This document shows positions 19,064-57,558 of a stretch of 64,000 nucleotides of DNA, piece by piece. A model generated the notes under the pieces. That model was not told the origin of the DNA and did not search any database. It saw only the letters and a program-made list of their open reading frames with translations. Source of the stretch: an uncultured Planctomycetia bacterium (GTDB lineage: Bacteria > Planctomycetota > MHYJ01 > WSZJ01); contig CAZPWT010000008.1 of assembly GCA_964590435.1 (NCBI GenBank), positions 83,880-147,879 of the forward strand, in the 5' to 3' direction. The position numbers were made by a program, and so were the translations under genes. The number at the start of each line of letters is the position of its first letter. Position 1 is the first letter of the stretch.

Positions 19064-20038
19064 CTACTTCTTCTCCCGCAGCCCCTCGAGTTCTGCCTCG
19101 ACGCTCCGGATGATCTCCGTGTTCTTCATGCCCGAGGCCATCGCGGCCTCGAGGTGTCGCTGGGCGTCGTCCAGTCGACCTTCGCAGACTGCTTTCGACC
19201 CGGCCAGGAAGCGCCCCTCCGACTTGCGCAGGCTGTCGATGTTCTCGATCGACCCCTTCGCTTCCGCGAGCAGGGCCTCCTCCGTCACGTCCCCGAGGAG
19301 AAACAGCCCATAGGACTCCACCCGATCTCCCCGGGGTTTCCTCCCTTTCAACCACTCCCGCAGCTCCCCGTCCGCCGCCTCCTTCTTCCCAAGCCGCGCC
19401 TTGAGGATCCAGATCCGCAGCCGCGTGTAGTCCTGCCCCTCGCTCTCCAGCGAAACGCTCTTCTCCAGGTCCGCCAGCGCGTCTTCCCATTCGCGAAGGT
19501 TGTAGAGGCAGAGGCCGCGGTTGAGGTAGGCGCGGGCGTAATTCGGGTTGAGCTGAAGGGCCATCGTGGCGTCCTTGAGGGCGCCGTCGGCATCGCCGTT
19601 GAGGCGCTTCGCGAACGACCGGTTGTTCCACGCGAGCGCCAGGTCGGGGTCGAGGCGCAGCGCGGCGTCGTAGGAAGCGATGGCGCCGGCGAGGTCGCCG
19701 GAGTCGGCCTTGGCGAGGCCGAGGTCGTTGTGGAGGCCGGCGTTTTCGGGGGCGAGGGTGAGAGCCTTGTCGAAGTCCTCGAGAGCGCCCTTGAGATCCC
19801 CAAGGCGTCGGCGTATCAACGCGCGGTTGTGCCACGCTGTGTCATCCAGGGGATCGGATTCGATCAGCCGGGTGCAAGCCTGCTCGGCCCGCTTGAGTCC
19901 GTCCGTGGAACACCTTTCCCAACTGCGGAGGGTGTGCGGCTCAGGGAGCGGATCGTCCGCGAACGCAGGAATCACCAGGGCCAGGACCACGAGGGCACGA
20001 AGCATGTCCCCATCATCCCCCGTGCCGTCCCTTTTCAT
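19064..20038 (-). CDS. Secreted TPR-repeat protein
   Basis: Several TPR units (AWHNRALIRRRLGDLKGALEDFDKAL, YNLREWEDALADLEKS); ATG 20038 preceded by an AG-rich tract; alternative start 20005 (MLRALVVLALVIPAFA). Confidence 0.7.
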   Translation of the reverse strand: MKRDGTGDDGDMLRALVVLALVIPAFADDPLPEPHTLRSWERCSTDGLKRAEQACTRLIESDPLDDTAWHNRALIRRRLGDLKGALEDFDKALTLAPENAGLHNDLGLAKADSGDLAGAIASYDAALRLDPDLALAWNNRSFAKRLNGDADGALKDATMALQLNPNYARAYLNRGLCLYNLREWEDALADLEKSVSLESEGQDYTRLRIWILKARLGKKEAADGELREWLKGRKPRGDRVESYGLFLLGDVTEEALLAEAKGSIENIDSLRKSEGRFLAGSKAVCEGRLDDAQRHLEAAMASGMKNTEIIRSVEAELEGLREKK

Positions 20039-20070
20039 TTTTCCTTTTTCCTTTTTCGTTTTTCCTTTCC
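20033..20070. repeat. Pyrimidine-rich TTTTTCC-type tandem tract (AG-rich on the minus strand)
   Basis: tttcatttttcctttttcctttttcgtttttcctttcc, in the divergent region between the TPR and PDZ genes; read on the minus strand it gives repeated GGAAAAA units upstream of the TPR start. Confidence 0.6.
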
Positions 20071-23424: not shown

Positions 23425-23485
23425 CCCTTTCCCTTTCCCTTTCCCTTGCCCTCCCTCGCAACCCGCAACCCGCAACTCGCAACTC
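23425..23485. repeat. Microsatellite-like tandem repeats (CCCTTT)n and (CNCGCAA)4
   Basis: ccctttccctttcccttgccctccctcgcaacccgcaacccgcaactcgcaactccccc in the intergenic region between the two esterase genes. Confidence 0.6.
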
Positions 23486-43001: not shown

Positions 43002-43026
43002 GTCGAAGGTCGAAGGTTGAAGGTCC
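43002..43026. repeat. GTCGAAG heptamer tandem array
   Basis: gtcgaaggtcgaaggttgaaggtcc, 9 nt after the leuB stop; same element in reverse complement at 52797..52828. Confidence 0.6.
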
Positions 43027-47903: not shown

Positions 47904-48125
47904 CGTTATCGAGACGGCCGCCCGGCGGTATGGCTCCCCCCCGCCGACCGGGCGGCCGGCTCTCTCGCGACTCAGGCCCGATTCAGCGGCGGTGGCGACC
48001 CGGGTACCCCAGTGCATGATCCGGTCAGGGTCATAGGGGCGAAGGGACCGCCGGCGCTGGAGCGGGCCTGGCTCTGGCGAACGAAGCGCACGAGTGCGCG
48101 GGGCAGCGCACCCCTCTGAAGCAGG

Positions 48126-48674
48126 TCAGCCCCGGCGCTCTCGTTGGCCGTGCCCGAGAGCCGAAAGTCGATCCGAAATCCTTTGGGGATCCGATAACTC
48201 GGCCCGGAGCTCGGGATTCGCGAGGTAGAAATTGATGACCTGCGACACCTCGTCGAGCGGGACCTGAACGTCCTCGTCCGAGACGATGATGTCAAAGCCG
48301 GTCAGGTTGCGATCCACGCGCTCGAGGAGTCCGGAGCTGGCGCGCTTGAGCCGGAGCCGAAGCACTCGCATCTTCTCCACAGTGACGGAGTCCACTGTGT
48401 CAAGATTGTCCCACTTGATTCGCTCCATCCCTGGTCCCGTGCGCAGGCGGACTTCTTCCGGCTCAAGATCGATGCCGTCCTGCCTCAGGTATCGAAGAAT
48501 GCCCGCTGGAAACAGCCACAGGCCGAAAAGGCCGGCGCAGAACCCTCCAATGACCAGCGCGGCCGTGCGGTGCTCGTAGAGCCCGTAGCAGAGGATCGCA
48601 ACCCCGGCGACGGCCCAGCCGGCATTCTCCAGAAGCTTCTTGCGTTCGCCGGATTTCGAAGATTGAAATTGCAT
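48126..48674 (-). CDS. Small membrane protein (paralog 2)
   Basis: Same architecture as 46511..47092 (two TM helices, soluble domain ending in a FY..NPE.R.EL.DP block). Confidence 0.5.
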   Translation of the reverse strand: MQFQSSKSGERKKLLENAGWAVAGVAILCYGLYEHRTAALVIGGFCAGLFGLWLFPAGILRYLRQDGIDLEPEEVRLRTGPGMERIKWDNLDTVDSVTVEKMRVLRLRLKRASSGLLERVDRNLTGFDIIVSDEDVQVPLDEVSQVINFYLANPELRAELSDPQRISDRLSALGHGQRERRG

Positions 48675-48690
48675 CCGGACTCCCCCCCGC

Positions 48691-49119
48691 CTACTTCTTC
48701 CCCTTCACGCCCTCTTCGAACGCGCTCCACGCCAGCAGCGCGCATTTCACGCGCACCGGGAACTTCCTCACGCCCTCCAGCGCCACGATGTCGCCCAGCG
48801 GGTCGGCTTCGTGCTTTTTGGTCTCGCCGCGCATCATCTTCTTGAAGAGCGCCGCGCTGGACATGGCGTCGGCCATGGGCTTGCCCTTGAGGATTTCGGT
48901 CATGAGGGAAGCGGAAGCCTGGGAGATGGCGCAGCCGCGGCCGCGGAACTTGACGTCGGCGACCTTGCCGTCCTTGAGGGAGACGTGGAGGGTGATGTCG
49001 TCGCCGCAGAAGGGATTGTTCATGGAGATGGAGACGTCGGGCGAGGCGATTTCGCCGCGGTTCCGGGGAGCCTTGAAGTGCTCCATGATGATTTCCTGGT
49101 ACAGGCTTTCTAGCGACAT
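48691..49119 (-). CDS. sufU: SUF-type Fe-S cluster scaffold SufU/NifU-like (copy 1)
   Basis: NPFCGDDITL, GRGCAISQASAS and VKCALLAW conserved Cys motifs. Confidence 0.8.
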   Translation of the reverse strand: MSLESLYQEIIMEHFKAPRNRGEIASPDVSISMNNPFCGDDITLHVSLKDGKVADVKFRGRGCAISQASASLMTEILKGKPMADAMSSAALFKKMMRGETKKHEADPLGDIVALEGVRKFPVRVKCALLAWSAFEEGVKGKK

Positions 49120-50339
49120 CCGAAGAACTCCCGTGTGCGGTTGAGGGAATCGACCATCTGGTCGATCTCGGACGTGGAAGTATACACGTAGAAGCTGGCG
49201 CGCGCCGTAGCGACGACACCGAGGCGGCGCATGAGGGGCTGGGCGCAGTGGTGGCCGGCGCGGATGCAGAGGCCGTCCTGGTCGAGGCAGGTGGCGAGGT
49301 CGTGGGGGTGGATCGGCTCGAGGGTGAAGCAGGCGACGCCGCCGCGGGGGCCGGACTGGGGGCCGAAGAGGACGCAGCCGGGAATGGCGGCGAGTTTCTT
49401 CTGGGCGTAGTCGGCGAGGGCTTCCTCGTGGGCGTGGACGGCGTCGAGGCCGAGCCCTTCGAGGTAATCGATGGCGGCGCCGAGGCCGGCGACCTCGGCG
49501 ACGGCGGGGGTGCCGGGCTCGAAGCGGTGCGGCGGGTCGCGGAACGTGGACTTGTCGAGGTACACCTCGAGGATCGTCTCACCGCCGACCATGAACGGGT
49601 CCATCTCGCGCAGGATCTCCGGCCGCGCCCAGAGCACGCCAACCCCCGTCGGGCCGCACATCTTGTGCGCGCTGAACGCGTAGAAATCGCAGCCGAGCGC
49701 GCCGACGTCGACCTTCATGTGCGGCGCCGCCTGCGCCCCGTCGGCGAGGAGCAGCGCCCCGACCGCGTGCGCCTTCGCCGCGATCTGCGCGATCGGGTTG
49801 ATCGTGCCGAGGACGTTCGAGGCGTGGCAGAGGGCAACAAGCCTGGTTTTCCGGGTGAGAAGGGCGTCGAGCGTCGAGAGGTCGAGGCGGCCTTCGTCCG
49901 TAATCGGGATGTGCTTCAGCACGATCCCCCGGTCGCGCTTCAACAGGTGCCACGGGACGAGATTCGAATGGTGCTCCATCTCCGTCAGCAGCACCTCATC
50001 GCCCGCCTTCAGGAACTTCCGCCCCCACCCGTGCGCCACGAGATTCACGGCCTCGGTCGTATTGCGGACGTAGATCACGCCCTCGGCCGACGGCGCGCCG
50101 ATGAACTTCGCGATCTTCTCGCGCGTCCCCTCGAACATCGCCGTCGCTTCCTCGGAAAGCTTGTACGCCCCGCGGTGGACGTTCGCGTTCATCTCGCGAT
50201 AGAAGCGCGCCATCGCTTCGATCACGGCCTCGGGCTTCTGCGACGTCGCGGCGCTGTCGAGATAGACGAGCGGCTTGCCGCGGACCTGGCGTGAGAGGAT
50301 CGGGAAGTCGGCGCGCACGCGAGCGGGATCGAGGTGCAT
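49110..50339 (-). CDS. sufS: Cysteine desulfurase SufS (copy 1)
   Basis: RADFPILSRQVRGKPLVYLDSAATSQKP, PLP-lysine SAHKMCGPTG, active-site RAGHHCAQP; start at internal ATG 50339 preceded by GAGG. Confidence 0.85.
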   Translation of the reverse strand: MHLDPARVRADFPILSRQVRGKPLVYLDSAATSQKPEAVIEAMARFYREMNANVHRGAYKLSEEATAMFEGTREKIAKFIGAPSAEGVIYVRNTTEAVNLVAHGWGRKFLKAGDEVLLTEMEHHSNLVPWHLLKRDRGIVLKHIPITDEGRLDLSTLDALLTRKTRLVALCHASNVLGTINPIAQIAAKAHAVGALLLADGAQAAPHMKVDVGALGCDFYAFSAHKMCGPTGVGVLWARPEILREMDPFMVGGETILEVYLDKSTFRDPPHRFEPGTPAVAEVAGLGAAIDYLEGLGLDAVHAHEEALADYAQKKLAAIPGCVLFGPQSGPRGGVACFTLEPIHPHDLATCLDQDGLCIRAGHHCAQPLMRRLGVVATARASFYVYTSTSEIDQMVDSLNRTREFFGCR

Positions 50340-50423
50340 TTGAGCCTCATTAAACCGGCGCGGCGTGCGACTGCAGGAAAAAAGAGGCTCGACGGATTGA
50401 TTCGCTGCCCCCGGGCCGGTAGG

Positions 50424-50458
50424 ATTCCGATACACATTCGGAGTATCGGAATGTGTAT
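50424..50458. promoter_or_regulatory. Palindromic operator candidate upstream of vapB
   Basis: ATTCCGATAC-N9-GTATCGGAAT perfect 10-bp inverted repeat with overlapping ATACACATTCGG half-sites, ending 12 nt before the vapB Shine-Dalgarno. Confidence 0.45.
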
Positions 50459-50470
50459 AAGGAGGGATTG

Positions 50471-50683
50471 ATGCGCCGTACGAACATCGTCATCGACGAG
50501 ATCCTAGTCCGCCGGGTCATGAAGGCCTTCGGCGTGAATTCCATGAAAGAAGCGGTCCACAAGGCCCTTCAGCAGGCCGACGAGCGCTCGAAGACCTACG
50601 AGGCCATGCGGGAACTCCGGGGCAAGCTCCACTGGGAAGGCGACATCGACGCATGGCGGAGGAATCGGCTTGATCGTCGTTGA
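50471..50683 (+). CDS. vapB: Type II antitoxin VapB-like
   Basis: AAGGAGGG before ATG; 70 aa; overlaps the downstream PIN gene. Confidence 0.7.
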   Translation: MRRTNIVIDEILVRRVMKAFGVNSMKEAVHKALQQADERSKTYEAMRELRGKLHWEGDIDAWRRNRLDRR

Positions 50684-51065
50684 CTCCGCGGTCTGGGTCG
50701 CCTGGTTCAACGGCCGCGCGGACCCGCACGTGAGCCGCCTCGACCGTGGCCGCGCCCGGAAAGAGGATTTCGCCACCGCACCCCTGATCATCACCGAGGT
50801 GCTGCAGGGCTTTGCTGACGACCGCGAGTTCGAGCGAGCGCGCGACTTCATGATCCGCCTGCCGTCGCTGGCCCTCGACGAGAACGGTCATGTCGAGGCG
50901 GCGCGACTGTACCGGACCCTTCGGAAGCGGGGTTTGACGATCCGGGGCACGGTGGACTGCATCATCGCCCAGACGTGCATTTCCAACGCCTGCGAGCTCC
51001 TCAGCCCCGACCGCGATTTCGCCGCCATAGCGAAGCACTCTGCGCTGAAGTTGTGTGCGGTTTGA
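50670..51065 (+). CDS. vapC: PIN-domain toxin VapC
   Basis: IVVDSAVWVAWF, PLIITEVLQG and DCIIAQTCI PIN motifs; TTG start overlapping vapB by 14 nt. Confidence 0.75.
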   Translation: MIVVDSAVWVAWFNGRADPHVSRLDRGRARKEDFATAPLIITEVLQGFADDREFERARDFMIRLPSLALDENGHVEAARLYRTLRKRGLTIRGTVDCIIAQTCISNACELLSPDRDFAAIAKHSALKLCAV

Positions 51066-51110
51066 TCGACGCTGGACGGTTGCATGGACGTTCACGACAA
51101 ACCGACCCGG

Positions 51111-51563
51111 TCATTCCGTGCTGACCGTCTCCGCCTTCCCCTTCAGCGCCGCCTCCAGCGCGTGCCACGAGAGCGTCGCGCACTTCACGCGCACCGGGAA
51201 CTCGGCCACGCCGGCGAAGATCGCGAGCTTGCCCAGGTCTTCGCCCTCGTAGGGCTTGCCGGCGTCGCGCGTCACCATCGCGTGGTACTTGCGGAAGAGC
51301 GCTTCCGCGTCGGCCTTCGACTTGCCGATGAGCTCCTGGGTCATGATGGAGGCGGCGGCGCGGGAGATGGCGCAGCCGTTGCCGAGGAAGCCGATGTCGG
51401 CGATTTTCTCGCCGTCCATCTTGAGGAAGACCTGGATATGGTCGCCGCAGAGGGGGTTGGCGCCGGCGGCCTTGTGGGTGGCGTCGGGGATGAGCTTGAA
51501 ATTCCGGGGGCGCTTGTAGTGCTCGAGGATGACGTCGCCGTAGAGGTCGGTGAGGTCGCTCAT
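51111..51563 (-). CDS. sufU: SUF-type Fe-S cluster scaffold SufU/NifU-like (copy 2)
   Basis: NPLCGDHIQV, GNGCAISRAAAS, VKCATLSW; ATG overlaps sufS stop (ATGA). Confidence 0.8.
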   Translation of the reverse strand: MSDLTDLYGDVILEHYKRPRNFKLIPDATHKAAGANPLCGDHIQVFLKMDGEKIADIGFLGNGCAISRAAASIMTQELIGKSKADAEALFRKYHAMVTRDAGKPYEGEDLGKLAIFAGVAEFPVRVKCATLSWHALEAALKGKAETVSTE

Positions 51564-52843
51564 GACGTGAACACCTCCACGACCTTGCGGAGGGCGGCCT
51601 CGAGGGCGAGGGCTTCCTCCGGAGTGTTGTAGAACGCGACGGAAGCGCGGGCGGTGGCGGGGAGGCCGAGGCGGGTCATGACGGGCTGGGCACAGTGGTG
51701 GCCGGTGCGGATGGCGACGCCCTCGCGGTCGGCGATGGTGCCGATATCGTGGGGGTGGATGCCCTCGAGGACGAAGGAAGCGACGCCGGCCTTGTCCTTC
51801 GCGGTGCCGACGAGTTTCGCGCCGGGGACGCGGAGGATGGCGGCCTCGAAGGCGGCGAGGAGTTCCTTTTCGCGGGCGGCGATGCGGTCCATGCCGATCG
51901 CCGACAGGTAGTCGATCGCGGCGCCGAGTCCGACGACGCCCTCGATGTTCGGGGTGCCGGCTTCGAACTTCGCGGGGACCTCGGCCCAGGTGGACTTCTC
52001 GAAGCTGACGCTGGAGATCATGTCGCCGCCGCCCTGCCACGGGGGAAGCGAGTTCCAGAGGGCGAGCGGGGCCCAGGCGACGCCGATGCCGGTGGGGGCG
52101 CACATCTTGTGGCCGCTGAAGATATAGAAGTCGGCGCCGATGTCTTTCACGTTCACGGGCTGGTGCGGGACGGCCTGCGCGCCGTCGACGAGGACCGTCG
52201 CGCCGGCGGCCTTCGCCATCCGGGCGATCTCGCGGATCGGGGTGACGGTGCCGAGGGCGTTCGAGACGTGCGTGACGGCGACGAGCTTCGTCTTCGGCGA
52301 CAGGAGCTTCGCGTACTCCGCCATGTCCAGCTCGCCCGCGTCGTTCATGGGGATGACGCGGATCTTCGCGCCCTTCTCTTCGCACAGCAGCTGCCACGGG
52401 ACGATGTTCGAGTGGTGCTCGAGCGTCGAGAGCACGATCTCGTCGCCCTTCCCGATCCGCGTCCGCCCGAACGTCTGGGCGACGAGGTTGATCCCCTCGG
52501 TGGCGCCGCGGACGAAGACGCACTCGCGGGGATCGGCGGCATTGATGAAGCGGGCGACTTTCTTCCGGACGCCCTCGTACGCGATCGTCGCCTGCTCGGA
52601 GAGCCAGTGCACGCCGCGGTGGATGTTGGCGTTGTGCGATTCGTAGTACTCGCGCACCGCGTCGATGACGACCTGCGGCTTCTGGCTCGTCGCGGCGTTG
52701 TCGAGGTAGACGAGCGGCTTGTTGCGCACGGACTGCTTCAACGCCGGAAAGTCGGATCGCACGGCAGCCCAGTCGACCGGGCGGTCGGGGCCAGGCCCTT
52801 CAACCTTCGACCTTCGACCTTCGACGCCGTTCTCCGTCCTCAA
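51560..52843 (-). CDS. sufS: Cysteine desulfurase SufS (copy 2)
   Basis: RSDFPALKQSVRNKPLVYLDNAATSQKP, SGHKMCAPTG, RTGHHCAQP; TTG start placed to overlap the sufD stop (TTGA), a GTG about 75 nt downstream is an alternative; ORF 51560..53389 has an Arg-rich upstream extension. Confidence 0.75.
   Translation of the reverse strand: MRTENGVEGRRSKVEGPGPDRPVDWAAVRSDFPALKQSVRNKPLVYLDNAATSQKPQVVIDAVREYYESHNANIHRGVHWLSEQATIAYEGVRKKVARFINAADPRECVFVRGATEGINLVAQTFGRTRIGKGDEIVLSTLEHHSNIVPWQLLCEEKGAKIRVIPMNDAGELDMAEYAKLLSPKTKLVAVTHVSNALGTVTPIREIARMAKAAGATVLVDGAQAVPHQPVNVKDIGADFYIFSGHKMCAPTGIGVAWAPLALWNSLPPWQGGGDMISSVSFEKSTWAEVPAKFEAGTPNIEGVVGLGAAIDYLSAIGMDRIAAREKELLAAFEAAILRVPGAKLVGTAKDKAGVASFVLEGIHPHDIGTIADREGVAIRTGHHCAQPVMTRLGLPATARASVAFYNTPEEALALEAALRKVVEVFTS
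52797..52828. repeat. GTCGAAG heptamer tandem array (reverse-complement copy)
   Basis: Minus strand reads ggcgtcgaaggtcgaaggtcgaaggttgaagg, shortly after the sufD stop; same unit as 43002..43026 with one extra copy. Confidence 0.6.
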
Positions 52844-54186
52844 GCGTTCCTCCCCGCCTCCAGCAACCTCTGCACGATCGACCGGTCGAGCCACTCCCGC
52901 GTCTCCGGGATCGCGAACTGCACCAGCACGTCCCGCGCGAAAGCATACGTCAGGATCCCCCGCGCCAGCTCCGGCGCGATGCCGCGCGACCGGCAGTAGA
53001 ACACCATCTCCTCGTCCAGCTGCCCCACCGTCGCCCCGTGTGTGCACTTCACGTCGTCCGCGAAGATCTCCAGCTGCGGCTTCGTGTCGACGCGGGCGTC
53101 GTCGGAGAGGAGCAGGTTCTTGTTCGTCTGCTTCGCGTCCGTCTTCTGCGCGTCCTCCCTCACGAACACCTTCCCGTTGAACACCACGTGCGACCGCCCG
53201 TTCAGGATCGCCTTGTAGAACTCGCGGGAAGGGCAGTTCGGGACGGCGTGGTCGATGACGGTGTGGTGGTCGATGTGCTGGTGGCCGGACGCGATCGAAA
53301 GGCCAAGGAACTGCGCCTCTGCGCGCTGGCCGGCGAGGAAGGCGCCGAGGTCGTGGCGGAAGAACTCCGCGCCGGTGACGGCGCTGCACTCCTGGAAGAA
53401 TGCGCCTTCGCCGAGCCGGGCCTGCGTGTTGGCGACGTGGTACGCGTTGCCGCTCTCCGCCTCGAGCCGGATCGACACGAGGCGCGCTCCGGCGGCCAGG
53501 TCCACCTCGGTCACGGCGTTGGTGAAGTAGAGGTCGCAGGAGGGCGAAGCGTAGGCTTCGACGACCTGGACCTGCGCGCCGGCGCCGAGCACGAACAGGT
53601 GCCGCGGGTGGCTGGCGAGGTAGGACTCGTGCGACAGGTGCAGGACAAGGACCGGCTTCTCGACGACTTTCCCTTCAGGCACGTACACGAACGCCCCGTC
53701 CTGGAACAGCGCGGTGTTGAGCGCCGTGAACGCCGTCGCGCCCGGCTTCGCGAGCTTCCCGAGCCGCGGCTCGATGATCGCGCGGTGCTTCTCGAGCGCC
53801 TCCGCGAGGCTGCACACCACGACGCCCGCCGGGAGCCCGTCGAGCTTCGAGAGCTCCTTCGAGAAGAACCCGTCCACGACCACGATCCGCGGCGAATTCT
53901 CCAGCCCGAACGTGAACAGCTTCGCCGTGTTCGCGACCAGCGCGTCCTTCTTCGGCTCCAGCGACTGCCGGAACCCCGTCTTCACCAGCGTCTCGACGCT
54001 CGTGTACCGCCACTCCTCGTCCGCGGTCGTCGGGAACCCGCGCTCCCGGAACGCCGCCGCGCCGAGCTTCCGCAACTCCGCGAGCCACGGGAAGCGCTTC
54101 CAGCCCGCGCTCCGCTCCCCCGCCTCGAGGTGGGCGGGCCAGCAGCCGCCGAGGACGGCGGGCTTCTCGAGGGCGGCCGTGCTCAT
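52840..54186 (-). CDS. sufD: Fe-S cluster assembly protein SufD
   Basis: 448 aa SufD-like sequence; ATG overlaps sufC stop (ATGA). Confidence 0.85.
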
Positions 54187-54947
54187 CGCGCGGCTCCCGC
54201 GACCGCCGGCTCCTTGACCCAGTCGTAGCCGCGCTTCTCCAGCTCCAGCGCGAGATCCTTGCCGCCCGACTTCACGATCTTCCCGTCGGACAGCACGTGC
54301 ACGAAGTCCGGCACGATGTAGTTCAGGAGGCGCTGGTAGTGCGTCACGACGAGGAAGGCGCGGTCCTTCGAGCGCAGCTTGTTGACGCCGTCGGACACGG
54401 CGCGAAGGGCGTCGATGTCGAGGCCGGAGTCGGTCTCGTCGAGGATGGCGAGCTTCGGCTCGAGGACGGCGAGCTGGAAGATCTCGTTGCGCTTCTTTTC
54501 GCCGCCGGAGAAGCCCTCGTTCACGGGGCGGTTCAGGAGCGACTCGTCGATGTGGAGGATCTTGGACTTCTCCTTGAGGAGCTTGTTGAAGTCCATCGCG
54601 TCGAGCTCGGGCTCGCCGCGGTGCTTGCGGATCTCGTTGTAGCCGGCGCGGAGGAAGTACGCGTTGGAGACCCCGGGGATTTCGACGGGGTACTGGAACG
54701 CAAGGAAGATGCCCTCTTTGGCGCGGTCTTCGGGGGACTTGTCCGCGAGGTCTTCGCCCCTGTAGGAGATCGTGCCGCCCGTCACCGTGTAAGCGGGGTG
54801 CCCCGCCAGCACTTGCGCGAGCGTGCTCTTCCCCGACCCGTTGGGCCCCATGATGGCGTGGACTTCCCCCGCCTTCACGCTGAGCGAGAGCCCCTTGAGG
54901 ATTTCCTTCTTCCCGACCGTAGCGCGCAGGTCCTTGATCTCGAGCAT
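54183..54947 (-). CDS. sufC: Fe-S cluster assembly ATPase SufC
   Basis: Walker [14 protein letters not shown] signature FSGGEKKR, Walker [13 protein letters not shown]; start at internal ATG after an AG-rich RBS. Confidence 0.9.
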
Positions 54948-55011
54948 CTCAGTCCTTCCCTTTCCGTTTTTCTGTTGTCCTTCACTGGCCGCTGGCAACT
55001 GGCCGCTCGCC

Positions 55012-56445
<1,434 letters not shown>

Positions 56446-56467
56446 GGCGTTTCTCCTGACGGGCTAA

Positions 56468-56490
56468 AATAGGACTAAATTTGTCCTATT
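56468..56490. promoter_or_regulatory. Palindromic operator candidate upstream of sufB
   Basis: AATAGGAC-taaattt-GTCCTATT, perfect 8-bp inverted repeat with 7-nt AT-rich spacer, 23-45 nt upstream of the sufB start. Confidence 0.45.
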
Positions 56491-56613
56491 CCTGCTGCGA
56501 AATTTCGGGGGCACCTCCGTCGCCTGGCTCCAATCCTCTTCGATTCCGGGCGACAGGGATGCCCCCGCCGGACCCTCAATGCTAGTCGATCGCAGAAGAG
56601 TGTCAAGCGCGGC

Positions 56614-57558
56614 CTACGAGGCGGACTTGAGCCGGTTCTTCTCGGCGGAAGCGCGCTCCAGCGCGCCCTCCACGAGCCCCTGGAAGGCCGCGGCATCCGC
56701 CACGGGGGCCGGGAAGGCGCCCACTCCCACGCTGATGGAGATCTTCCCCCCCGGCATCTCCGCCCGGTTCGCGAACTGGGAGTTCGCGACCATCGACCGG
56801 ATCCAGTCCGCCACCTCGATCGCCTTCTCCTGGTCCGTCTCCGGCATCAGCACCGCGAACCGGTCCGGCCCGTACCGCACCAGCAGGTCCGTGTCCCTCA
56901 CCTGCTGCTGGAAGATCTTCGCGATCCCCTGAACCAGCTGGTCCGCCGACTGCCGCCCGAACGCCGACGCGTACTTGTCCAGGTAGTCCACCTGCGCCAG
57001 CGCCAGCGCCACCGGCCGCTCCGCGCGCTTGGCCCGCTTGAGCTCCCTCGCGAACATCTCGTCGAAGAGCTTCCGCGAGGCCAGCCCGGTCATCGCGTCC
57101 ACGGTCGCCGCCGCCTCGGCGCCCTTCTGGACCGCGGCGGCCTGCTGCCGCAGGTCGGCGACGGCGCCGACGAGCCCGCCCAGGTCGCGCTCGAGCTCCT
57201 TGATGCGCGTCCCCATCGCCGTCACCGCCGTGGCATCGCGGCGCGCCGACGCGATGAACAGCGCGACCACGCCGCAGCCGAGCGCCGCGGCGGACCGCAC
57301 GGCGTCGGCCAGTTCTCGCGGCCCGCCGCGCGGCGGACGGAACAGCGCCGGCACCGCCAGCGCCAGCGACAGCCCAAGCAGCGCCAGGCTCAGCCTCGAC
57401 ACGAACACCGCATGCGGGTCCGCCCCGCCGCGCCGCGCGATCACCCGCGACTGGATCGCCGCCCACGCCGCCATCACCACGAAGACGACGCTTCCGATCG
57501 CGTGCACCATCTGCGGCACGCTGAGCGACAGCGACCGGACCGAAGCGGGATCAGGCAT
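56614..57558 (-). CDS. Membrane-anchored GGDEF-domain protein with degenerate active site
   Basis: N-terminal TM helices; GGDEF fold (DAMTGLASRKLFDEMF) but signature reads RYGPDRF instead of RYGGEEF. Confidence 0.75.
   Translation of the reverse strand: MPDPASVRSLSLSVPQMVHAIGSVVFVVMAAWAAIQSRVIARRGGADPHAVFVSRLSLALLGLSLALAVPALFRPPRGGPRELADAVRSAAALGCGVVALFIASARRDATAVTAMGTRIKELERDLGGLVGAVADLRQQAAAVQKGAEAAATVDAMTGLASRKLFDEMFARELKRAKRAERPVALALAQVDYLDKYASAFGRQSADQLVQGIAKIFQQQVRDTDLLVRYGPDRFAVLMPETDQEKAIEVADWIRSMVANSQFANRAEMPGGKISISVGVGAFPAPVADAAAFQGLVEGALERASAEKNRLKSAS

What the first reader, a model, noticed from the sequence alone, without database searches (positions are those of the whole stretch)
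48691..52843. Two sufS-sufU modules in tandem, separated by a vapBC pair on the opposite strand
The complete sufBCDS-sufU operon is followed, after a vapBC pair encoded on the other strand in a lower-GC patch, by a second sufS-sufU pair. The two SufS and the two SufU proteins are clearly homologous but substantially diverged, so this is an old duplication or an acquired second module. A toxin-antitoxin pair wedged between paralogous Fe-S assembly modules is an odd neighbourhood.
Basis: seen in the sequence. Interest (0 to 1): 0.5.

Follow-up and report, generated by a model that had tools for sequence, protein, structure and literature searches.

The report
Two SufS-SufU pairs around a variable spacer
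An uncultured Planctomycetota bacterium carries its iron-sulfur assembly operon plus a second, anciently separate sulfur-donor gene pair right next to it, and the toxin-antitoxin pair between them is just one of many interchangeable passengers in a fast-changing gap, so the locus is real but fairly ordinary.

Summary
On the minus strand lie sufB-sufC-sufD-sufS1-sufU1, then vapB-vapC on the plus strand, then sufS2-sufU2. All four Suf proteins pass the curated SufS/SufU cut-offs, keep their catalytic residues and are under purifying selection (dN/dS 0.09-0.22).

The two pairs are not a local tandem duplication. SufS1/SufU1 group with the sufBCD-S-U operons of Verrucomicrobiota, a Bacteroidota MAG and an unnamed metagenome contig (98% and 93% bootstrap). 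SufS2/SufU2 form their own clade among Chloroflexota/Actinomycetota/Truepera-type proteins. A sister relationship of the two pairs gets 0% bootstrap.

The two-module layout and its flanking genes are conserved in Planctomycetota MAGs down to 75% SufS2 identity. The gap between sufU1 and sufS2 differs in nearly every lineage:
- vapBC (two deeply diverged alleles)
- a solo vapB
- a solo HicB-like gene
- an ECF sigma factor plus small ORFs
- a peptidase-like gene
- a kinase
- a radical-SAM/PqqD cluster

VapBC is a strain-level passenger, not a partner of Fe-S assembly. All components are ordinary members of known families. Interest is modest.

The parts
56579..56606 (-). Sigma-70-like promoter match (TTGACA-16-TAGCAT) about 135 nt upstream of sufB; candidate operon promoter
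   Evidence: It is the only consensus match in 48000-57000. It is a consensus match only; Planctomycetota promoters are poorly known.
55012..56445 (-). sufB (477 aa), Fe-S scaffold subunit
   Evidence: NF008773, 910 bits against a cut-off of 717; SUFBD_core. It is 71-78% identical to SufB of B-C-D-order operons in L014, L015, L086, L047 and L065, but only about 42% identical to SufB of C-B-D-order operons.
54183..54947 (-). sufC (254 aa), ABC ATPase of the scaffold
   Evidence: TIGR01978, 366 bits against a cut-off of 213. The ATG is at 54947 (MLEIKDL...). 4-nt overlap with sufD.
52840..54186 (-). sufD (448 aa)
   Evidence: TIGR01981, 271 bits against a cut-off of 222.
51560..52843 (-). sufS1 (427 aa), operon-embedded type II cysteine desulfurase
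   Evidence: TIGR01979, 577 bits. The motifs SGHKMC (PLP Lys), RTGHHCAQP (catalytic Cys) and GIHPHD (Zn-swap His) are present. Groups with SufS of sufBCD-S-U operons at 98% bootstrap. dN/dS 0.18.
51111..51563 (-). sufU1 (150 aa), zinc-dependent sulfurtransferase partner of SufS1
   Evidence: TIGR01994, 151 bits against a cut-off of 92.5. The best PDB match is T. thermophilus 2QQ4. The CGD / GCAIS / RVKC ligands are present. dN/dS 0.22.
50340..51110 (.). Hypervariable spacer between sufU1 stop and sufS2 start; here it holds vapBC
   Evidence: Homology with L004, L007 and L098 breaks at 51115/51107 and at 50339/50356. Eight different contents were found in eight lineages.
50670..51065 (+). vapC (131 aa), PIN-domain toxin
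   Evidence: NF047959, 134 bits against a cut-off of 80; PF01850. It aligns with M. tuberculosis VapC11 and VapC15 with all four acidic residues conserved (D5, E43, D97, D115). GC3 0.85.
50471..50683 (+). vapB (70 aa), antitoxin
   Evidence: PF09957, 34 bits against a cut-off of 23.4. AAGGAGG sits before the ATG. GC3 0.79.
50424..50458 (.). Composite palindrome ATTCCGATACACATTCGGAGTATCGGAATGTGTAT, 13-47 nt upstream of vapB; candidate VapB operator
   Evidence: Inverted repeats I5 (13 nt, 92% complementary) and I14 (10 nt, 100%). An ATACAC...GTGTAT palindrome is also present upstream of the diverged vapBC allele in L100.
50349..50354 (-). TTTAAT box 10-15 nt upstream of the sufS2 ATG; candidate -10 element of a separate sufS2-sufU2 promoter
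   Evidence: A T(T/A)TAAT-like hexamer (TTTAAT, TTAAAT, GATAAT) is kept at this position in the window, L004, L098, L100, L007, L102 and L010, although the rest of the spacer is unalignable. Its function is inferred.
49110..50339 (-). sufS2 (409 aa), second type II cysteine desulfurase, separately placed
   Evidence: TIGR01979, 567 bits. The best PDB match is B. subtilis SufS 5XT5 at 463 bits; SAHKMC, RAGHHCAQP and PIHPHD align with Bsu K224, C361 and H342. dN/dS 0.12. GC3 0.915.
48691..49119 (-). sufU2 (142 aa), partner of SufS2; 10-nt overlap with sufS2
   Evidence: TIGR01994, 172 bits. The best PDB match is B. subtilis SufU 1XJS/5XT5_D, with C41, D43, C66, R125 and C128 conserved. It is the most conserved gene of the locus: 84-94% identity across the clade and dN/dS 0.09.
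47975..48075 (.). Conserved long hairpin downstream of the sufS2-sufU2(-orf182) unit and of the convergent HEAT-repeat gene; candidate bidirectional terminator
   Evidence: It is single-copy and syntenic in L098 and L007 (15 nt after the sufU2 stop in L007) at 83-86% identity. 5-7 pairs show compensatory changes. There is no Rfam match.

Best explanation
This is the core-genome SUF iron-sulfur assembly locus of an uncultured Planctomycetota lineage. It has two sulfur-mobilising modules of different ancestry.

Module 1 (sufS1-sufU1) is translationally coupled to sufBCD in a B-C-D-S-U operon. The sampled relatives of this operon type come from Verrucomicrobiota, a Bacteroidota MAG and an unnamed metagenome contig. 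Module 2 (sufS2-sufU2) is of the type seen in Chloroflexota, Actinomycetota and Truepera. It sits 0.8 kb downstream in the same orientation, as its own transcription unit.

In each module the mechanism is inferred from the B. subtilis system. The PLP enzyme SufS takes sulfur from L-cysteine onto its active-site Cys. It passes the sulfur to the zinc-bound Cys of SufU by a ligand swap with the SufS His. SufU then delivers it onward, most likely to the single SufBC2D scaffold.

Both modules are maintained by selection, so they are probably used under different conditions or regulation (inferred).

The gap between the modules is a fast-turnover spacer whose content is replaced by recombination anchored in the conserved flanks. 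In this strain it carries a complete, probably active, self-regulated vapBC type II toxin-antitoxin pair with no specific role in Fe-S assembly.
For: Shown directly:
- Family membership above curated cut-offs, with intact catalytic and ligand residues, for both SufS and both SufU.
- Purifying selection on all four genes: dN/dS is 0.18 (S1), 0.22 (U1), 0.12 (S2) and 0.09 (U2), like sufBCD at 0.07-0.12.
- The two-module layout and the downstream HEAT / ComF-like / TPR / release factor / dehydrogenase / helicase / aconitase synteny are conserved in MAG contigs with SufS2 identity from 96% down to 75%.
- Phylogeny: S1 groups with the BCDSU-operon type at 98% bootstrap and U1 at 93%. S1+S2 sister and U1+U2 sister each get 0%.
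- The nearest outside relatives of S1 sit in (Rrf2)-sufBCD-S-U-SufT operons.
- The nearest outside relatives of S2 sit in sufC-B-D-S-U operons or as a solo sufS-sufU pair.
- GC3 of module 2 (0.91) equals that of the host genes.
- Spacer turnover: homology breaks exactly at the sufU1 stop and the sufS2 start, and eight contents were found in eight lineages.
- Between the window and L100, vapB and vapC have dS 1.5 and 1.35, against 0.34-0.37 for the flanking sufU1 and sufS2.
- VapC has all four PIN acidic residues, and a palindrome lies upstream of vapB.

Inferred:
- Separate transcription of module 2. The arguments are the opposite-strand genes in the gap, the conserved TTTAAT box and the conserved hairpin after the unit.
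Against: - There are no expression or biochemical data. Whether both modules feed SufBCD is inference.
- Only 64 kb of this genome is visible. It is unknown whether IscS/NifS-type desulfurases exist elsewhere; none, and no SufT, SufA or Rrf2, are in the window.
- The trees are neighbour-joining on hand-picked top hits. The deep placement of the S2 clade among the Chloroflexota/Actinomycetota/Truepera-type sequences is poorly resolved (bootstraps 8-56%), so no donor lineage can be named.
- The VapB operator lies in the same 131-bp divergent region as the sufS2 upstream sequence. An incidental regulatory effect of VapBC on sufS2 in this strain is therefore not excluded.
Confidence: 0.75

Rival explanations
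1. Module 2 is a dedicated sulfur relay for something other than the SufBCD scaffold. Candidates are tRNA thiolation, thiamine, molybdopterin, or a specific Fe-S enzyme. On this reading it plays the role that IscS or the specialised desulfurases play in other bacteria.
For: - Module 2 is unlinked transcriptionally from sufBCD.
- The same SufS2 type occurs as a solo sufS-sufU pair far from sufBCD in a Truepera-like contig.
- SufU2 is the most constrained gene of the locus.
- A review notes that Mycoplasma species keep only SufSU, with no SufBCD, which suggests roles beyond Fe-S assembly (PMC13066941, read).
- No other desulfurase lies in the 64-kb window.
Against: - Both proteins are canonical SufS/SufU equivalogs with no extra domains.
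- No thiolation or cofactor gene is adjacent to module 2 in any lineage.
- The rest of the genome was not seen, so the absence of IscS is unknown.
Confidence: 0.25
2. The two pairs arose by a local tandem duplication of sufS-sufU in this lineage and then diverged.
For: - The two pairs are adjacent, in the same orientation and in the same gene order.
- SufS1/SufS2 are 49% identical and SufU1/SufU2 are 45% identical.
Against: - Each copy is much closer to proteins of other phyla (S1 62-67%, S2 55-62%) than to its neighbour.
- S1+S2 and U1+U2 are sisters in 0 of 300 bootstraps, while S1 groups with the BCDSU type at 98%.
Confidence: 0.03
3. vapBC is functionally tied to the suf genes, for example as a stress switch controlling sufS2-sufU2 through the shared divergent promoter region.
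For: - The vapB palindrome (50424-50458) lies 85-119 nt upstream of the sufS2 ATG, in the same 131-bp intergenic region.
- TA-type genes occupy the spacer in four of eight lineages: vapBC twice, a solo vapB and a solo HicB-like gene.
Against: - Close relatives keep both modules without vapBC (L098 at 96%, L007 at 90%, L010, L011).
- The vapBC alleles are about four-fold more diverged at synonymous sites than their flanks, which indicates replacement rather than co-evolution.
- vapBC GC3 is lower than that of the suf genes.
Confidence: 0.07
4. Module 2 is a redundant copy on its way to loss, or sufS2-sufU2 plus vapBC is a recently acquired mobile island.
For: - It duplicates the function of module 1.
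- It is flanked on both sides by strain-variable DNA: the spacer and the orf182 insertion.
Against: - The motifs are intact and dN/dS is 0.09-0.12, lower than for module 1.
- It is conserved with its synteny down to 75% identity.
- Its GC3 of 0.91 matches the host.
- There is no integrase, tRNA gene or terminal repeat.
Confidence: 0.03

Closest known systems
Bacillus subtilis SufS-SufU (PDB 5XT5; zinc-dependent sulfurtransferase system)
   Same: SufS2 and SufU2 have this pair as their best solved-structure matches (463 and 140 bits). PLP Lys224, Cys361 and His342 of SufS are conserved, as are Cys41, Asp43, Cys66, Arg125 and Cys128 of SufU. SufS1 and SufU1 keep the same residues.
   Different: B. 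subtilis has one pair inside sufCDSUB. Here there are two pairs of different ancestry. The B. subtilis-like pair stands outside the sufBCD operon, and the operon itself has the B-C-D order.
sufBCD-sufS-sufU(-sufT) operons of Verrucomicrobiota, a Bacteroidota MAG and an unnamed metagenome contig (loci L086, L015, L014)
   Same: They share the gene order of the window's sufBCD-sufS1-sufU1. SufB is 76-78% identical, SufS 61-64% and SufU 56-59%. S1 and U1 group with them at 98% and 93% bootstrap.
   Different: L014 and L015 also carry an Rrf2 regulator upstream and SufT downstream. Neither is in the window. None of the three loci shows a second sufS-sufU pair in the stretch fetched.
Mycobacterium tuberculosis VapBC11 / VapBC15 (PDB 6A7V, 4CHG), type II toxin-antitoxin
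   Same: A PIN-domain toxin with the four acidic active-site residues. The antitoxin gene lies upstream and overlaps it, and a palindrome lies in the promoter region.
   Different: The relationship is distant (48 and 36 bits). The antitoxin is of the PF09957 type. The RNA target is unknown.
Extra or partial suf gene sets in other bacteria, for example Paenibacillus polymyxa WLY78 (complete sufCDSUB plus partial sufC2D2B2; PMC8038749 abstract), and sufU-sufS-sufU arrangements in Chloroflexota (L017, L072, L073, L090)
   Same: These show that paralogous SUF components within one genome or one operon are already known.
   Different: In those cases the extra copies are scaffold genes or a second SufU. 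Here it is a full second SufS-SufU pair from a different lineage, kept next to the operon across a clade.

Membership tests
SufS (type II cysteine desulfurase, TIGR01979) | Whole-protein score above the curated cut-off | tested here: met
   SufS1 scores 576.9 bits and SufS2 566.6 bits against a cut-off of 475.1.
SufS (type II cysteine desulfurase, TIGR01979) | PLP-binding Lys and the catalytic Cys in the GHHC loop | tested here: met
   S1 has SGHKMC and RTGHHCAQP. S2 has SAHKMC and RAGHHCAQP. The S2 motifs align with B. subtilis K224 and C361.
SufS (type II cysteine desulfurase, TIGR01979) | SufU-partnered subtype: a His equivalent to B. subtilis His342 that replaces the SufU Cys as zinc ligand (PMC13066941) | tested here: met
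   S1 has GIHPHD and S2 has PIHPHD, each with the His 19 residues before the catalytic Cys, as in B. subtilis.
SufS (type II cysteine desulfurase, TIGR01979) | Cysteine desulfurase activity stimulated by the cognate SufU | not testable with these tools
   This needs enzyme assays.
SufU (zinc-dependent sulfurtransferase, TIGR01994) | Whole-protein score above the curated cut-off, with a full-length match to the SufU model rather than to IscU/NifU | tested here: met
   U1 scores 151.3 bits and U2 172.1 bits against a cut-off of 92.5, covering profile positions 1-137. The IscU and NifU models match only the N-terminal ~85 residues and fall far below their cut-offs.
SufU (zinc-dependent sulfurtransferase, TIGR01994) | Zinc ligands Cys41/Asp43/Cys66/Cys128 and Arg125 (B. 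subtilis numbering) | tested here: met
   U2 has NPFCGD, GCAIS and RVKC, aligned to 1XJS. U1 has NPLCGD, GCAIS and RVKC, aligned to 2QQ4.
SufU (zinc-dependent sulfurtransferase, TIGR01994) | Encoded next to its SufS | tested here: met
   sufS1/sufU1 overlap by 4 nt and sufS2/sufU2 overlap by 10 nt.
VapBC type II toxin-antitoxin | PIN-domain toxin with four conserved acidic residues | tested here: met
   NF047959 scores 133.9 bits against a cut-off of 80. D5, E43, D97 and D115 align with the acidic residues of VapC11 and VapC15.
VapBC type II toxin-antitoxin | Small antitoxin gene immediately upstream, overlapping the toxin gene, with a palindromic operator | tested here: met
   VapB matches PF09957 at 34.1 bits against a cut-off of 23.4. 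The genes overlap by 14 nt. Inverted repeats lie at 50424-50458. Binding itself was not tested.
VapBC type II toxin-antitoxin | Toxicity neutralised by the antitoxin | not testable with these tools
   This needs expression experiments.
Family 2A encapsulin cargo cysteine desulfurase (NF041166) | Score above the cut-off, and the ~220-residue N-terminal cargo-loading region | tested here: not met
   It is the top hit of SufS1 by bits (638.5), but the score is below the cut-off of 800. Only profile positions 220-622 are matched, and SufS1 has just a ~20-residue N-terminal extension. It is not a member.

The most novel reading that the evidence does not exclude
The two SufS-SufU pairs are orthogonal sulfur relays kept side by side because they serve different acceptors or conditions. 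The more constrained module 2 would act as the general sulfur donor of a lineage that lacks IscS. The sufU1|sufS2 junction, locked between two indispensable units, would serve as a protected landing pad where accessory and toxin-antitoxin genes are swapped by flank-anchored recombination.
Probability: 0.2. Interest if true: 0.5.

Novelty: new member of a known kind. Interest (0 to 1): 0.28.

Why it matters
The locus gives a natural pairing of two SufS-SufU systems from different evolutionary lines in one cell. That could be used to study what makes a desulfurase recognise its own sulfur acceptor, since cross-talk between such pairs is known to be restricted (PMC13066941).

It also gives a compact example of an accessory-gene spot that turns over even between strains whose flanking genes are 98.5-99% identical, inside an otherwise conserved housekeeping locus. 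Neither point changes current understanding of Fe-S assembly or of toxin-antitoxin systems.

Tried and rejected
- **Genome-contig scan with SufS2.** It named no close Planctomycetota species. It was useful only for operon context.
- **Metagenome-contig scan with SufU2.** It gave just two close loci, both on short contigs. One of them (L102) added a further spacer state.
- **First MAFFT alignment of the window against L004 across the gap.** It was misleading because the gap contents are not homologous. BLASTN break-points replaced it.
- **Encapsulin-cargo reading of SufS1.** It was raised by the top NCBIfam bit score and rejected: the score is below the cut-off and the N-terminal domain is missing.
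- **Consensus terminator scan.** It found nothing meaningful between sufU1 and vapC or after sufU2, and overall counts were below the shuffle expectation.
- **tRNA and Rfam scans of the whole window.** Both were empty, so there is no tRNA-linked island signature.
- **Direct or inverted repeats bounding the vapBC cassette.** None was convincing, so a transposon-like cassette is not supported.
- **Literature searches.** No report of paired sufS-sufU modules in Planctomycetota was found.
- **Single-sequence folding of the conserved intergenic hairpin.** It was not better than shuffles (z = -0.15). Only the three-sequence comparison suggests structure.

Full report
**What is there.** The window has 68% G+C, so the mechanical ORF lists are crowded. 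One consistent gene set nevertheless stands out on the minus strand:
- sufB 55012..56445
- sufC 54183..54947
- sufD 52840..54186
- sufS1 51560..52843
- sufU1 51111..51563

The last three junctions are 4-nt overlaps. Next, on the plus strand, come vapB (50471..50683, ATG preceded by AAGGAGG) and vapC (50670..51065, 14-nt overlap). Back on the minus strand lie sufS2 (49110..50339, ATG preceded by GAGG) and sufU2 (48691..49119, 10-nt overlap).

Curated family models confirm every name above its cut-off: SufB, SufC, SufD, both SufS (TIGR01979), both SufU (TIGR01994), VapC (NF047959) and VapB (PF09957). SufS1 and SufS2 are 49% identical (E = 1e-143). SufU1 and SufU2 are 45% identical (E = 4e-40).

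The 'lower-GC patch' is marginal in plain G+C. It is visible at third codon positions: vapB 0.79 and vapC 0.85, against 0.91-0.96 for all seven suf genes.

**Are both modules working genes?** Both SufS proteins keep three features:
- the PLP lysine (S[GA]HKMC);
- the catalytic cysteine loop (R[TA]GHHCAQP);
- the histidine 19 residues upstream of that cysteine (HPHD), which in B. subtilis SufS (His342) takes over a zinc ligand position of SufU during sulfur transfer (mechanism from PMC13066941).

Both SufU proteins keep the Cys/Asp/Cys/Cys zinc ligands and the arginine equivalent to Arg125. Both match the SufU model over its full length, while the IscU and NifU models match only their N-terminal halves.

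Against the orthologs in a relative (L007), dN/dS is 0.18 (S1), 0.22 (U1), 0.12 (S2) and 0.09 (U2). For sufBCD it is 0.07-0.12. Module 2 is thus at least as constrained as module 1. SufU2 is the most conserved protein of the locus: 84-94% identity across the clade, against 63-84% for SufU1.

**Where the two modules come from.** The closest proteins to SufS2 are from Planctomycetota MAGs (96% down to 75% identity). There is then a gap to about 60-62% in Chloroflexota, Truepera, Actinomycetota and Acidobacteriota. SufS1 likewise has Planctomycetota orthologs (90-71%), followed by 62-67% hits whose few source names are Bryobacterales, Acidobacteriales and Bacteroidota.

Gene neighbourhoods show what these outside relatives are:
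- SufS1-like proteins sit in (Rrf2)-sufB-C-D-S-U-sufT operons (L014, L015; also L086 from Verrucomicrobiia). Their SufB is 76-78% identical to the window's.
- SufS2-like proteins sit in sufC-B-D-S-U operons whose SufB is only about 42% identical, or as a solo sufS-sufU pair (L016).

Solved structures agree. SufS2 and SufU2 are closest to the B. subtilis pair. SufS1 is closest to structures 6C9E and 8KG1, and SufU1 is closest to the Thermus thermophilus protein.

Neighbour-joining trees with 300 bootstraps give the following support:
- the Planctomycetota S1 clade with the BCDSU-operon type: 98%;
- the U1 clade with the same type: 93%;
- S1+S2 as sisters: 0%;
- U1+U2 as sisters: 0%.

So this is not a local tandem duplication. 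It is either very ancient paralogy or acquisition of a second pair. The deep position of the S2 clade is unresolved, so I name no donor. Module 2 has host-like GC3 (0.91), so its arrival is old.

**The arrangement is conserved; the vapBC is not.** Exact copies of SufU2 and near relatives of SufS2 were located on public contigs. All of these keep sufBCD-sufS1-sufU1, a gap, and sufS2-sufU2. Downstream they also keep the HEAT-repeat, ComF-like, TPR, release-factor, dehydrogenase, DinG-like helicase and aconitase genes. This is a core chromosomal region, not an island. The gap content, however, differs from lineage to lineage:

| Lineage | Similarity to the window | Gap content |
|---|---|---|
| Window, L001, L002 | identical | vapBC |
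| L004 | flanks 98.5-99.1% nt | solo vapB, 53% identical to the window VapB; no room for a vapC |
| L098, L099 | SufS2 96% | L098: ECF sigma factor, three unknown ORFs and a BamE-like lipoprotein gene; L099 (2.2 kb) shows only the lipoprotein gene next to sufS2 |
| L100 and a JGI contig | SufS2 91% | a vapBC allele (VapB 66%, VapC 59% identical) |
| L007-L009 | SufS2 90% | DUF1570/peptidase-MA-like gene plus the BamE-like gene |
| L102 | SufS2 79% | solo HicB-like antitoxin plus a 243-aa ORF with no family match and a hydrophobic N-terminus |
| L010 | SufS2 76% | CBS protein, unknown ORF, Ser/Thr kinase-FGE fusion |
| L011-L013 | SufS2 75% | eight genes: PqqD, two glycosyltransferases, a nucleotidyltransferase, a radical SAM enzyme and three ORFs with no family match |

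BLASTN homology with L004, L007 and L098 stops at the sufU1 stop codon (51115/51107) and at or just before the sufS2 start codon (50339/50356). Between the window and L100 the vapB and vapC alleles have dS of 1.5 and 1.35. The genes on either side have dS of 0.34-0.37. The cassette has therefore been exchanged independently of its flanks.

No integrase, tRNA gene or bounding repeats are present. The simplest mechanism is replacement by homologous recombination in the conserved flanking genes; this is inferred.

**The vapBC itself.** VapC aligns with M. tuberculosis VapC11 and VapC15 and keeps the four acidic PIN residues. VapB is a PF09957 antitoxin. A composite palindrome (50424-50458) lies 13-47 nt upstream of vapB. 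An ATACAC...GTGTAT palindrome is also found upstream of the diverged allele in L100. This fits the usual autoregulated type II module. Nothing links it specifically to Fe-S assembly. The only caveat is that its operator shares the 131-bp divergent region with the sufS2 upstream sequence.

**How module 2 is probably expressed.** In every lineage opposite-strand or unrelated genes separate it from module 1, so it must have its own promoter. A T(T/A)TAAT-like hexamer 8-15 nt upstream of the sufS2 ATG is retained in seven of eight lineages, although the rest of the spacer cannot be aligned. It could be a -10 element giving a very short leader (inferred).

Downstream, a single-copy conserved hairpin of about 100 nt (47975-48075) sits at the same place in L098 and L007. 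It has several compensatory pair changes. It may terminate the sufS2-sufU2 unit and the convergent HEAT-repeat gene.

In the window an extra 182-aa ORF with a hydrophobic N-terminal stretch, no family match and GC3 of 0.74 is inserted between sufU2 and this hairpin. It is missing in L098 and L007.

**Function.** The best-supported reading is two sulfur-mobilising modules for one SufBCD scaffold. One is translationally coupled to the scaffold genes and the other is independently controlled. A real alternative (about 0.25) is that module 2 supplies sulfur to other acceptors. Three points favour it: the existence of solo pairs of this type elsewhere, the strong constraint on SufU2, and the absence of another desulfurase, SufT, SufA or Rrf2 regulator in the 64 kb. 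The rest of the genome is unseen, so this cannot be decided here.

**Comparison and verdict.** Every component is a regular member of a well-known family. Extra suf genes are known, for example in Paenibacillus polymyxa (PMC8038749). Two SufU genes around one SufS occur in Chloroflexota (L017, L072, L073, L090). I found no report of paired sufS-sufU modules in Planctomycetota.

Two things are mildly new. The first is the conserved side-by-side retention of two SufS-SufU pairs of different ancestry. The second is the very fast turnover of the small gap between them. The toxin-antitoxin 'wedge' that drew attention to the locus is incidental. Interest is modest.

Noticed in passing
window 47975-48075 (also L098 6112-6215, L007 11695-11800): A single-copy, syntenic, conserved long hairpin of about 100 nt lies between orf182/sufU2 and the convergent HEAT-repeat gene. 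It is 83-86% identical although flanking genes have dS of about 0.4-0.5. 5-7 pairs show compensatory changes among three sequences. C-A mismatches on the suf-sense strand become G-U on the plus strand. There is no Rfam match. It may be a U-tract-less bidirectional terminator or a 3'UTR element.
   Followed up: partly
window 48126-48674 (-): A 182-aa ORF with a hydrophobic N-terminal stretch and no Pfam or NCBIfam match lies 16 nt after sufU2. It is a strain-specific insertion of about 620 bp: homology with L098 and L007 resumes at 48071. Its GC3 is only 0.74.
   Followed up: partly
window 52797-52825 (-) and 43002-43025 (+): The same heptamer tandem repeat, (GTCGAAG)x2-3 followed by GTTGAAGG, occurs twice. 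One copy lies in codons 7-16 of sufS1 as called from TTG 52843. The other lies upstream of the release-factor gene. A degenerate version sits at the same place in sufS1 of L007. A 7-nt repeat inside a coding 5' end could shift frame by slippage. Copy number was identical in the one other strain available (L002).
   Followed up: partly
window 50349-50354 (-) and the equivalent positions in L004, L098, L100, L007, L102, L010: A T(T/A)TAAT-like hexamer is kept 8-15 nt upstream of the sufS2 start codon in seven of eight lineages, while the rest of the upstream spacer is unalignable. It may be a -10 box for a near-leaderless sufS2-sufU2 transcript.
   Followed up: partly
L011 4029-9944, L012 1389-7306, L013 1-4714: In the 75%-identity lineage the spacer holds eight genes: PqqD-like, two family-2 glycosyltransferases, an NTP_transf_5 nucleotidyltransferase, a radical SAM enzyme and three ORFs with no family match. 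It looks like a small peptide-modification (RiPP-like) cluster.
   Followed up: no
L010 7128-9875, 17705-20620, 20787-21230: One 21-kb stretch of a Planctomycetota MAG holds three large Ser/Thr-kinase proteins fused to an FGE-sulfatase domain. One of them lies in the sufU1|sufS2 spacer.
   Followed up: no
L017 6544-8653, L072, L073, L090 8755-11648: Some Chloroflexota suf operons carry two SufU-like genes flanking a single sufS (sufU-sufS-sufU). In Ardenticatena the downstream one also has a weak SufE hit.
   Followed up: no
window 51560-52843 (SufS1): The highest NCBIfam bit score of SufS1 is to the family 2A encapsulin cargo desulfurase model (638 bits). The score is below the cut-off of 800 and covers only the catalytic part of the model. 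SufS1 lacks the long N-terminal cargo-loading region.
   Followed up: yes
L098 3882-4193 (-), L007 9522-9833 (-), L099 27-338 (-): A 103-aa BamE-like lipoprotein gene (PF04355, just above the cut-off) lies directly upstream of sufS2 on the opposite strand in two lineages (69% identical to each other). It may be the older occupant of the spacer.
   Followed up: partly
window 20028-20068 and 23425-23485: Other short tandem repeats in an otherwise GC-rich window: (TCCTTTT)x5.9, (CCCTTT)x4.7 and (CTCGCAA)x4.4. They were not examined.
   Followed up: no
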